64,000 nt of DNA from Escherichia coli. GTDB lineage: Bacteria > Pseudomonadota > Gammaproteobacteria > Enterobacterales > Enterobacteriaceae. Below, one piece after another: positions 30,160-30,323 of this stretch. The notes below the pieces were generated by a model. It had not been told where the DNA came from. It saw only the letters and a list, made by a program, of their open reading frames with translations, and did no database searches. Made by a program: the position numbers and the translations under genes. The stretch lies in assembly GCF_030013205.1 (NCBI RefSeq), contig NZ_CP122648.1, one strand, 5' to 3'. How positions within the stretch are numbered: the first letter of the stretch is position 1; each line of letters opens with the position of its first letter.

Positions 30160-30323
30160 CAGATAAGTGAAATCTAGTTCCAAACTATTTTGTCATTTTT
30201 AACTTTCGCGCTAGCTTGCAACACCACACCCAGTTTCCATCTATTTTGTCACTTTTCCCAAAATAACTCTCAAAAACCCCCATTTTCACCCCTCCCAATT
30301 CCCAACTATTTTGTCCGTCTACA
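30160..30323. repeat. Tn7 left end (Tn7L) with three TnsB-binding-type repeats
   Basis: Three spaced ctattttgtc-containing repeats (30184-30200, 30241-30256, 30306-30320); the terminus reads ...ttttgtccgtctaca. Confidence 0.85.

What the first reader, a model, noticed from the sequence alone, without database searches (positions are those of the whole stretch)
30160..30323. Imperfect Tn7 terminal inverted repeat: left terminus reads TGTAGACG, right terminus TGTGGGCG
Read inward, the right end starts TGTGGGCGGACAA (16703-16715) while the left end starts TGTAGACGGACAA (reverse complement of 30311-30323). The terminal 8 bp of one element therefore differ at two positions, and the left-end TnsB-type repeats also differ from each other and from the right-end repeats. 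The terminal bases are where TnsA/TnsB cleave, so this copy may be a divergent Tn7 relative, a hybrid, or partly immobilised.
Basis: seen in the sequence. Interest (0 to 1): 0.45.

Follow-up and report, generated by a model that had tools for sequence, protein, structure and literature searches.

The report
Tn7 with a borrowed left tip
This is an otherwise textbook Tn7 transposon in a pig E. coli chromosome whose outermost 121 bases at the left end were swapped in from a sister transposon. The mismatched tips are real, but they are the normal configuration in that sister lineage and probably harmless.

Summary
The right terminus reads TGTGGGCG (16703-16710). The left terminus, read inward, is TGTAGACG (30316-30323). 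Both are flanked by a 5-bp duplication, GGGCT.

The window is E. coli ETEC4079, and the element sits in attTn7 downstream of glmS. Against canonical Tn7 from plasmid R721:
- There are 0 differences over 16703-27384 and over 28096-30202.
- There is a cassette change, a truncated estX in place of dfrA1.
- There are 19 substitutions plus 1 indel in the outer 121 bp of the left end (30203-30323; Fisher p = 4.5e-41).

This is a sharply bounded recombination patch, not decay or sequencing error. Sixteen of the 20 variant bases recur in left ends of Tn7 sister elements.

TGTAGACG is the native left terminus of at least six sister lineages. Complete 10.9-kb sisters (TnsB 93.7% identical) carry exactly this pair, TGTGGGCG on the right and TGTAGACG on the left, at glmS with a 5-bp duplication.

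The differences are at positions 4 and 6, not at the conserved TGT. In a tested Tn7-like system, positions 4-8 are dispensable.

Verdict: a mosaic Tn7, probably still mobile. "Hybrid" is supported, "divergent relative" is refuted, and "immobilised" is unlikely. Interest is low.

The parts
14848..16677 (+). glmS. Its 3' end is the TnsD recognition region of attTn7.
   Evidence: ORF; annotated glmS in the identical record NZ_CP122643.1.
16698..16702 (.). Target-site duplication, copy 1 (GGGCT). It starts 21 bp after the glmS stop codon.
   Evidence: The empty site with a single GGGCT is 100% identical in other swine E. coli.
16703..16710 (+). Right terminal octamer TGTGGGCG (canonical Tn7).
   Evidence: identical to R721 Tn7.
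16711..16793 (+). Four overlapping 22-bp TnsB-binding sites of the right end: R1 16711-16732, R2 16731-16752, R3 16752-16773, R4 16772-16793.
   Evidence: identical to canonical Tn7.
16837..24563 (+). tnsA, tnsB, tnsC, tnsD and tnsE at 16837-17658, 17645-19753, 19750-21417, 21420-22946 and 22947-24563. There are no nucleotide differences from canonical Tn7.
26539..29386 (.). Class 2 integron: aadA1 (26539-27374, -), sat2 (27432-27956, -), a 123-bp remnant of an estX cassette in place of dfrA1 (27973-28095, -), and intI2 with its internal stop (28409-29386, +).
   Evidence: Annotation; alignment; estX match.
28096..30202 (.). Inner left arm, identical to canonical Tn7. It includes the innermost TnsB site gamma (30173-30194). 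The recombination crossover lies somewhere in this stretch.
30203..30323 (-). Mosaic patch: the outer 121 bp of the left end, with 19 substitutions and a 1-bp insertion relative to Tn7. It is derived from a Tn7 sister lineage.
   Evidence: It is 84.4% identical to canonical Tn7, and 88% (107/121; 89.9% over the 128-bp megablast query) to the closest sister left ends.
30229..30250 (-). TnsB site beta, GACAAAATAGATGGAAACTGGG. One change from Tn7 (position 15, G to A, window 30236), shared with the Methylophaga-type sisters.
30294..30315 (-). TnsB site alpha, GACAAAATAGTTGGGAATTGGG. One private change (position 18, C to T, window 30298).
   Evidence: Position 18 is the base pair contacted by TnsB K116 (PMC9308760; the mapping of the numbering is my inference).
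30316..30323 (-). Left terminal octamer. It reads TGTAGACG inward and differs from the right octamer at positions 4 and 6.
30324..30328 (.). Target-site duplication, copy 2 (GGGCT), followed by the glmS terminator stem.

Best explanation
The element at 16703-30323 is prototypical Tn7 with a mosaic left end.

How it arose:
- Homologous recombination with a sister Tn7 element replaced the outer 121 bp of the left end. This covers the terminal octamer, TnsB sites alpha and beta, and both spacers.
- The sister lineage's native left terminus is TGTAGACG.
- The crossover lay in or just inside the innermost TnsB site gamma. That is essentially the only left-arm stretch shared between Tn7 and sisters with unrelated cargo.
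- The most likely setting is a tandem array of two elements at one attTn7, or two elements on different replicons in one cell.

How it got here: the hybrid then entered the empty attTn7 of this swine ETEC lineage by the ordinary TnsABC+TnsD pathway, making the GGGCT duplication.

Expected activity: the imperfect terminal repeat is tolerated, because TnsB needs the terminal TGT/ACA, correctly spaced 22-bp sites, and little else. Activity is expected to be normal or modestly reduced.

What is shown: the mosaic structure, the sister origin of the allele, the native occurrence of the same octamer pair, and the precise insertion.

What is inferred: the recombination mechanism, the place where it happened, and the retained mobility.
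For: Mosaic boundary:
- There are 0 differences from R721 Tn7 over 10,682 bp (16703-27384) and over 2,107 bp (28096-30202). Then there are 20 differences in 121 bp (Fisher p = 4.5e-41).

Real alleles rather than errors:
- 16 of the 20 variant bases are shared with at least one independently assembled sister left end.

TGTAGACG is a natural left terminus:
- 5 GTDB species genomes carry it, as do 10 metagenome contigs.
- These give at least six distinct left-end sequences and at least seven distinct flanks.

Complete sister elements (L020, L022-L024):
- They are 10,897 bp. TnsA/B/C/D/E are 87/93.7/90/86/80% identical to Tn7.
- They sit just downstream of glmS, with right terminus TGTGGGCG and left terminus TGTAGACG.
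- L020 and L024 have a 5-bp duplication, CAAAG.
- All 31 DNA-contact residues and the DDE triad reported for Tn7 TnsB are identical in the sister TnsB (residue list from PMC9308760).

Selection pattern:
- Each 22-bp TnsB site in the patch has 1 change. The two spacers carry 16 of the 20 changes.

Precedent for end swapping:
- L021 has the same body and the same site as L020. Within the element it has 35 differences confined to the outer 94 bp of the right end and 1 elsewhere.
- Abutted left and right ends of different elements occur in L004, L015 and L018.

Arrival as a unit:
- attTn7 is empty and 100% identical in related swine E. coli.
- None of the other 5,425 complete E. coli genomes contains the sister-type left end.

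Tolerance of the changes:
- In VchCAST, positions 1-3 of the terminal 8 bp are critical and positions 4-8 are not (PMC10201428).
- TnsB shows sequence preference rather than strict specificity (PMC9308760).
Against: - The exact donor was not found. The best sister left ends are only 88% identical to the patch, and 4 of the 20 variant bases are private.
- One private change (30298) alters position 18 of the terminal TnsB site. That position is C in all seven Tn7 sites and in all eight sister left ends compared. It is the base pair contacted by TnsB K116. This could lower activity, although the K116A protein keeps about 50% transposition.
- The alpha-beta spacer is 43 bp instead of 42 bp.
- No second copy of this hybrid at another site was found, so its mobility is not demonstrated.
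- The only shared homology for a crossover with a typical sister is about 30-50 bp. That is short for RecA-dependent recombination.
Confidence: 0.8

Rival explanations
1. The mosaic formed in situ in this E. coli lineage. A sister element first occupied attTn7, and Tn7 then inserted between glmS and it, re-duplicating GGGCT. Recombination between the two directly repeated left ends then deleted the outer Tn7 left end and the whole sister except its outer left end. Under this reading, the hybrid end itself need never have been used by Tn7 proteins.
For: - Tandem or abutted ends of Tn7 sisters exist in nature: L004 with a 4-bp gap, L015 with a 5-bp gap, L018 with a 2-bp gap.
- Site-specific insertion would give the same GGGCT at every junction, so the observed duplication is compatible with this route.
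Against: - None of the other 5,425 complete E. coli genomes has a sister-type left end.
- Closely matching swine strains have an empty attTn7.
- It needs three successive events in one lineage.
- It needs insertion next to an element with near-identical TnsB sites, despite Tn7 target immunity (established knowledge; PMC9308760 introduction).
Confidence: 0.15
2. The left end is decaying by point mutation in a copy that is no longer under selection, that is, an immobilised relic.
For: Two mismatches in the terminal octamer and one change in each of two TnsB sites.
Against: - There are no mutations in 10.7 kb of tns genes and right end. The differences are confined to 121 bp.
- 16 of the 20 changes coincide with alleles of sister elements.
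- The TnsB sites are far better conserved than the spacers.
Confidence: 0.01
3. Sequencing or assembly artefact at the transposon-chromosome junction.
For: The variant is seen in a single deposited assembly. The reads could not be inspected.
Against: - Errors would not reproduce natural sister alleles at 16 of 20 positions.
- Errors would not preserve site spacing, the TGT...ACA termini and a perfect 5-bp duplication.
- No sister element exists elsewhere in the genome record that could have caused a chimeric assembly. There is only one place per genome.
Confidence: 0.03

Closest known systems
Prototypical Tn7, as carried by plasmid R721 (NC_002525.1; 14,067 bp)
   Same: - Right end, tnsABCDE, most of the class 2 integron and the inner left arm are nucleotide-identical.
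- Same attTn7 insertion geometry, with the right end next to glmS and a 5-bp duplication.
   Different: - The outer 121 bp of the left end are 84% identical, the left terminus is TGTAGACG, and the alpha-beta spacer is 43 bp rather than 42 bp.
- The dfrA1 cassette is replaced by a 123-bp estX remnant, and there is one further substitution at 27385.
Unnamed Tn7 sister elements in metagenome assemblies (L020, L022-L024; 10,897 bp, with CD-NTase/Cap15 cargo)
   Same: - Exactly the same pair of terminal octamers: TGTGGGCG on the right and TGTAGACG on the left.
- Same end architecture and the same glmS-proximal insertion.
   Different: - The Tns proteins are only 80-94% identical to Tn7, and the cargo is different.
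- Their left end is 79% identical to the window's patch (97/123), so this lineage is not the donor.
Left ends of the TGTAGACG type in Methylophaga pinxianii, Alcaligenaceae MAGs and metagenome contig L018
   Same: - They share TGTAGACG, the 43-bp spacer and most patch-specific bases.
- L018 matches 58 of the outer 60 bp. The Methylophaga type matches best in the beta-gamma spacer.
   Different: - None is identical (at most 88% over 121 bp).
- Several are orphan or degenerate ends. The Methylophaga copy has a tnsA truncated to 62 codons and a right terminus of TATGGACG.
VchCAST (Tn6677) and other Tn7-like elements with an 8-bp terminal sequence
   Same: Same organisation: an 8-bp terminal sequence followed by the first TnsB site. 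Mutagenesis showed that positions 1-3 are essential and positions 4-8 are dispensable (PMC10201428).
   Different: It is a distant relative with RNA-guided targeting. The tolerance was measured with a different TnsB, so it is an analogy and not a test of Tn7.
Tn7-like element on K. pneumoniae IncC plasmid pIA/C-KLUC (NZ_MH476540.1)
   Same: It is a close Tn7 sister (94% nucleotide identity over tnsB-tnsE) with a class 2 integron. It also has non-matching terminal octamers, TGTAGAGT on the right and TGTGGGCG on the left.
   Different: Here the right end is the variant one and the left end is of the Tn7 type. No target duplication is visible.

Membership tests
Tn7 (prototypical element) | tnsA-tnsB-tnsC-tnsD-tnsE operon adjacent to the right end | tested here: met
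   ORFs at 16837-24563. There are no nucleotide differences from R721 Tn7, and both records carry the same RefSeq protein accessions.
Tn7 (prototypical element) | Termini 5'-TGT...ACA-3', each followed after 8 bp by the first 22-bp TnsB site | tested here: met
   TGT at 16703-16705 and ACA at 30321-30323. The first sites start at position 9 from each terminus.
Tn7 (prototypical element) | Asymmetric ends: four overlapping TnsB sites on the right and three spaced sites on the left | tested here: met
   R1-R4 lie at 16711-16793. Alpha, beta and gamma lie at 30294-30315, 30229-30250 and 30173-30194. The alpha-beta spacer is 43 bp against 42 bp in Tn7 (PMC9308760).
Tn7 (prototypical element) | Perfect 8-bp terminal inverted repeat TGTGGGCG at both ends (a feature of the reference copy, not of the wider family) | tested here: not met
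   The left octamer is TGTAGACG, with mismatches at positions 4 and 6.
Tn7 (prototypical element) | 5-bp target-site duplication, with insertion downstream of glmS and the right end proximal to glmS | tested here: met
   GGGCT at 16698-16702 and 30324-30328. The reconstructed empty site is 100% identical in other E. coli.
Tn7 (prototypical element) | Ability to transpose with its own TnsABC+D/E | not testable with these tools
   Inferred only, from the intact duplication, the intact genes and the native use of the same octamer pair by sister elements.
TGTAGACG-type left ends of Tn7 sister elements (membership of the 121-bp patch) | Terminal octamer TGTAGACG followed by GACAAAATAGTTGGGAA | tested here: met
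   Exact match to the 25-nt pattern that retrieved 10 metagenome contigs, and to the 20-nt pattern that retrieved 5 species genomes.
TGTAGACG-type left ends of Tn7 sister elements (membership of the patch) | Closer to the sister left ends than to the Tn7 left end over the patch | tested here: met
   107/121 to the Methylophaga, ProtMAG and L018 types, against 101/121 to Tn7. Some other sisters are no closer than Tn7, for example L012 and L015 at 101/121 and L010 at 97/123. 16 of the 20 Tn7-discordant bases are shared with sisters.
TGTAGACG-type left ends of Tn7 sister elements (membership of the patch) | An identified donor with an identical sequence | tested here: not met
   There is no identical copy in the GTDB species genomes, JGI metagenomes, PLSDB plasmids or 5,426 E. 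coli genomes.

The most novel reading that the evidence does not exclude
Swapping of only the outermost part of a transposon end between co-resident Tn7 sisters may be a recurrent process rather than a one-off accident.

Three sharply bounded cases turned up in this small sample:
- the left end here;
- the right end of L021;
- the mixed right and left types of the pIA/C-KLUC element.

It might be favoured because it changes how an element is seen by a neighbour's TnsB, through target immunity, cross-mobilisation or tnsAB promoter repression at the right end.
Probability: 0.15. Interest if true: 0.45.

Novelty: new member of a known kind. Interest (0 to 1): 0.2.

Why it matters
There is little consequence for biology at large.

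For people who type or engineer Tn7, three points follow:
- Natural Tn7 copies can carry heterologous outer ends. End-based PCR or annotation rules that demand TGTGGGCG at both termini will miss them.
- Positions 4-8 of the terminal octamer vary freely among Tn7's closest relatives. The octamers seen were TGTGGGCG, TGTAGACG, TGTGAGCG, TGTAGAGT and TGTGGAGT, and TGT is invariant. This supports the view that only the tip and the spacing matter.
- Recombination within the roughly 150-bp ends is a route by which Tn7 sisters exchange parts.

The element also carries sat2 and aadA1 in a porcine ETEC chromosome.

Tried and rejected
- I searched for the exact donor with an exact-pattern scan of GTDB species genomes, JGI metagenomes, PLSDB plasmids and E. 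coli complete genomes. Only related left ends were found, none identical.
- I tried to trace other copies of this particular element through its unique estX-remnant/sat2 ORF. It is not on record.
- I followed the Methylophaga plasmid hit for 70 kb, hoping for a complete element. It is a degenerate element without tns genes, with only a 62-codon tnsA fragment, so it says nothing about native end pairs.
- L018's right end is followed by a non-Tn7 gene, so it is also uninformative on that point.
- Tang, Cotterill and Lichtenstein 1995 (Gene 162:41) is the direct mutational study of the Tn7 terminal 8 bp. The library does not hold it. I therefore rely on the VchCAST mutagenesis as an analogy.
- Literature string searches found no paper containing TGTAGACGGACAA. 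TGTGGGCGGACAA appeared only in vector papers.
- Three readings were rejected on the distribution and identity of the differences: a wholly divergent relative, mutational decay, and a sequencing artefact.

Full report
**What is at the coordinates**

- The + strand from 16703 reads TGTGGGCGGACAATAAAGTCTTAAAC.
- The reverse complement ending at 30323 reads TGTAGACGGACAAAATAGTTGGGAATTGGG.
- The two terminal octamers therefore differ at positions 4 and 6. The TGT...ACA tips are intact.
- The element (16703-30323; 13,621 bp) is flanked by GGGCT on both sides, at 16698-16702 and 30324-30328.
- The window is identical over 32 kb to the chromosome of E. coli ETEC4079, from pig faeces in Belgium (NZ_CP122643.1).
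- The element lies between glmS (14848-16677) and the lpf-O113 fimbrial operon, which is attTn7, with the right end next to glmS.
- Removing the element and one GGGCT gives a 300-bp sequence that is 100% identical in many other swine E. coli chromosomes.
- This is therefore a clean transposon insertion with a 5-bp target duplication into a site that is empty in related strains.

**Comparison with reference Tn7**

I took the 14,067-bp Tn7 of plasmid R721 (L002:1457-15523) as the reference and aligned the whole element.

| Window region | Difference from R721 Tn7 |
|---|---|
| 16703-27384 (right end, tnsABCDE, part of the integron) | none |
| 27385 | one substitution |
| 27973-28095 | the 570-bp dfrA1 cassette interval is replaced by 123 bp |
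| 28096-30202 | none |
| 30203-30320 | 19 substitutions and a 1-bp insertion |

- The 123 bp at 27973-28095 are the two ends of an internally deleted estX cassette.
- Twenty differences in the outer 121 bp, against one in the other 13,377 aligned bases, is not compatible with in-place mutation (Fisher p = 4.5e-41).
- The Tns proteins carry the same RefSeq protein accessions in both records.
- The element is Tn7 proper, not a divergent relative. Only its left tip is foreign.

**Anatomy of the patch**

Read inward from the terminus:

| Segment | Window coordinates | Change from Tn7 |
|---|---|---|
| Octamer TGTAGACG | 30316-30323 | 2 changes |
| TnsB site alpha | 30294-30315 | 1 change, position 18 C to T, at 30298 |
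| Alpha-beta spacer | 30251-30293 | 43 bp instead of 42; 8 substitutions plus 1 insertion |
| TnsB site beta | 30229-30250 | 1 change, position 15 G to A, at 30236 |
| Beta-gamma spacer | 30195-30228 | 7 changes, the last at 30203 |
| TnsB site gamma | 30173-30194 | identical to Tn7, as is everything inward of it |

- The functional 22-bp sites are thus nearly unchanged, and the spacers carry 16 of the 20 differences.
- That is the pattern expected of a homologous end from a diverged but functional relative.
It applies equally to canonical Tn7.

**How common the variant is**

- Among 5,426 complete E. coli genomes, 117 carry a Tn7 left end. Only ETEC4079 has this patch, and all the others are 84.4% identical to it, meaning they are canonical.
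- None of 229 plasmids with a Tn7 left end has the patch. The only plasmid found by megablast with the patch alone is a Methylophaga pinxianii plasmid, at 89.9%.
- Outside Tn7 proper, the terminus is common. The exact string TGTAGACGGACAAAATAGTT occurs in five GTDB species genomes: a Proteobacteria MAG, two Alcaligenaceae MAGs, Paenalcaligenes hominis and Methylophaga.
- The 25-mer TGTAGACGGACAAAATAGTTGGGAA occurs in ten metagenome contigs.
- Aligned, these are at least six different left-end sequences at at least seven different flanks. All share the architecture of octamer, alpha, a 43-45-bp spacer, beta, a second spacer and gamma.
- Sixteen of the 20 bases at which the window departs from Tn7 are shared with one or more of these sisters. 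This also rules out sequencing error.
- No sister is identical to the patch. The best are 107/121. L018 matches 58 of the outer 60 bp, and the Methylophaga type matches best nearer gamma. The actual donor is therefore unsampled, and may itself be mosaic.

**Complete sister elements with the same octamer pair**

This is the decisive result.

- Contig L010 carries a TGTAGACG left end together with tnsB'-tnsC-tnsD-tnsE.
- Looking up its TnsC in the assembly index returned whole elements (L020-L024).
- They are 10,897 bp and encode TnsA/B/C/D/E at 87/93.7/90.3/85.8/80.3% identity to Tn7.
- They carry a CD-NTase/Cap15 (CBASS-type) cargo and lie immediately downstream of a glmS gene.
- In L020, L022, L023 and L024 the right terminus is TGTGGGCG and the left terminus is TGTAGACG. 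This is exactly the 'imperfect' pair seen in the window.
- L020 and L024 have a perfect 5-bp duplication, CAAAG. L022 and L023 sit behind a different glmS allele.
- All 31 DNA-contacting residues and the DDE triad listed for Tn7 TnsB (PMC9308760) are identical in the sister TnsB.
- A transposase with a seemingly identical DNA-binding surface therefore natively works with this pair of ends.

**Tolerance of the changes**

- For the Tn7-like VchCAST, pooled mutagenesis showed that positions 1-3 of the 8-bp terminal sequence are critical, positions 4-8 are not, and the spacing to the first TnsB site is critical (PMC10201428).
- Here positions 1-3 and the 8-bp spacing are intact, and only positions 4 and 6 differ.
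- TnsA cuts 3 nt outside the element, and TnsB cuts at the terminal A (same source).
- Tn7 TnsB makes few base-specific contacts and shows preference rather than strict specificity (PMC9308760).
- One caveat remains. The private C to T change at alpha position 18 (30298) removes the G:C pair whose guanine O6 is contacted by K116, 'conserved in all sites'. Mapping their numbering onto my site coordinates is my inference.
- K116A TnsB retains about 50% transposition, so I expect at most a modest effect.
- Across the sisters, the octamers seen were TGTGGGCG, TGTAGACG, TGTGAGCG (L018 right), TGTAGAGT (L021 and pIA/C-KLUC right) and TGTGGAGT (the neighbouring element in L015). TGT is invariant and positions 4-8 are free.

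**Origin of the patch**

- The sharp boundary and the sister alleles indicate homologous recombination.
- Sisters with unrelated cargo share with Tn7 only the roughly 150-bp left end. For several of them the identity inward of position 121 is confined to about 30 bp around gamma. A crossover there would give exactly this structure.
- Precedents were found in the same data. L021 has the same body, the same insertion site and the same duplication as L020. Within the element it differs at 35 positions confined to the outer 94 bp of the right end, and at only 1 position elsewhere.
- Left and right ends of different elements lie 2-5 bp apart in L004, L015 and L018. This shows that tandem arrays exist in which direct-repeat recombination between like ends could occur.
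- Every insertion at one attTn7 duplicates the same 5 bp, so such a deletion would preserve the flanking duplication.
- Where the event happened cannot be settled. No other complete E. coli genome has a sister-type end, and related strains have an empty site.
- I therefore favour formation in another host, followed by ordinary TnsABC+D transposition of the hybrid into this chromosome (about 0.65).
- The alternative is in-situ formation from a transient tandem array (about 0.15).
- The first route implies that the hybrid left end was used successfully by Tn7 proteins. That is inference, not demonstration.

**Comparison with what is known, and novelty**

- The element meets every family-defining feature of Tn7 that I could test: gene set, TGT/ACA tips, 4+3 site architecture, 5-bp duplication and glmS-proximal orientation.
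- It fails only the reference-copy feature of a perfect 8-bp inverted repeat. That feature is not conserved even among Tn7's nearest relatives.
- I found no paper mentioning this terminus.
- It is best filed as a new mosaic allele of a known transposon, that is, a new member of a known kind.
'Divergent relative' is wrong for the element as a whole. 'Partly immobilised' is unlikely but untested.
- Interest is low (0.2).
- The only mildly interesting extension is that outer-end swapping among Tn7 sisters may be recurrent.

Noticed in passing
window 27973-28095: The first integron cassette is not dfrA1. It is a 123-bp remnant of estX, with its 5' part joined to the cassette's 3' end and attC, giving attI2-(truncated estX)-sat2-aadA1. 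This junction is unique among 5,426 complete E. coli genomes. Intact estX-sat2-aadA1 Tn7 variants occur in several pig isolates.
   Followed up: partly
L021:128-221 compared with L020: Two copies of the same 10.9-kb Tn7 sister sit at the same glmS site with the same CAAAG duplication. Within the element they differ at 35 positions confined to the outer 94 bp of the right end, and at only 1 position elsewhere. The right terminus is TGTAGAGT in one and TGTGGGCG in the other. This is an independent, sharply bounded end swap.
   Followed up: partly
L004:861-881; L018:120-140; L015:1035-1055: A left terminus (TGTAGACG) and a right terminus of a Tn7-type element lie back to back, separated by 4 bp in L004, 2 bp in L018 and 5 bp in L015. 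The 5-bp case fits a tandem insertion. The 2-bp and 4-bp gaps do not fit a simple 5-bp duplication and are unexplained.
   Followed up: no
L020:181-11077 (also L022-L025): This Tn7 sister has an anti-phage CBASS-type cargo (CD-NTase plus Cap15) in place of an integron. Its downstream flank contains an inverted pair of GCCGTCTGAA, the Neisseria DNA uptake sequence (my own knowledge), which suggests a Neisseriaceae host. Its exact TnsC is present in 39 blocks of the assembly index.
   Followed up: partly
L003:1-18128 / L019:200-560 (Methylophaga pinxianii plasmid pWTT2411): This is a degenerate 18-kb Tn7-type element. Its left end is of the TGTAGACG type and its right end starts TATGGACG, so the tip TGT has been lost. 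tnsA is cut to 62 codons, there are no other tns genes, and the cargo is cytochrome c maturation and glycogen genes plus insertion sequences.
   Followed up: partly
L026:20001-32599 (K. pneumoniae IncC plasmid pIA/C-KLUC, NZ_MH476540.1): A clinical-plasmid Tn7 sister (94% nucleotide identity over tnsB-tnsE) carries a class 2 integron whose intI2 is annotated without the pseudogene flag that the ETEC4079 copy carries, plus a group II intron. Its right terminus is TGTAGAGT and its left terminus is TGTGGGCG, so 4 of 8 octamer positions differ. No target duplication is visible.
   Followed up: partly
window 26539-27374: RefSeq marks aadA1 as frameshifted. The sequence there is identical to the R721 Tn7 copy, and the only nearby difference is G/T at 27385, just upstream. 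The flag probably reflects the Tn7 allele rather than a new lesion.
   Followed up: no
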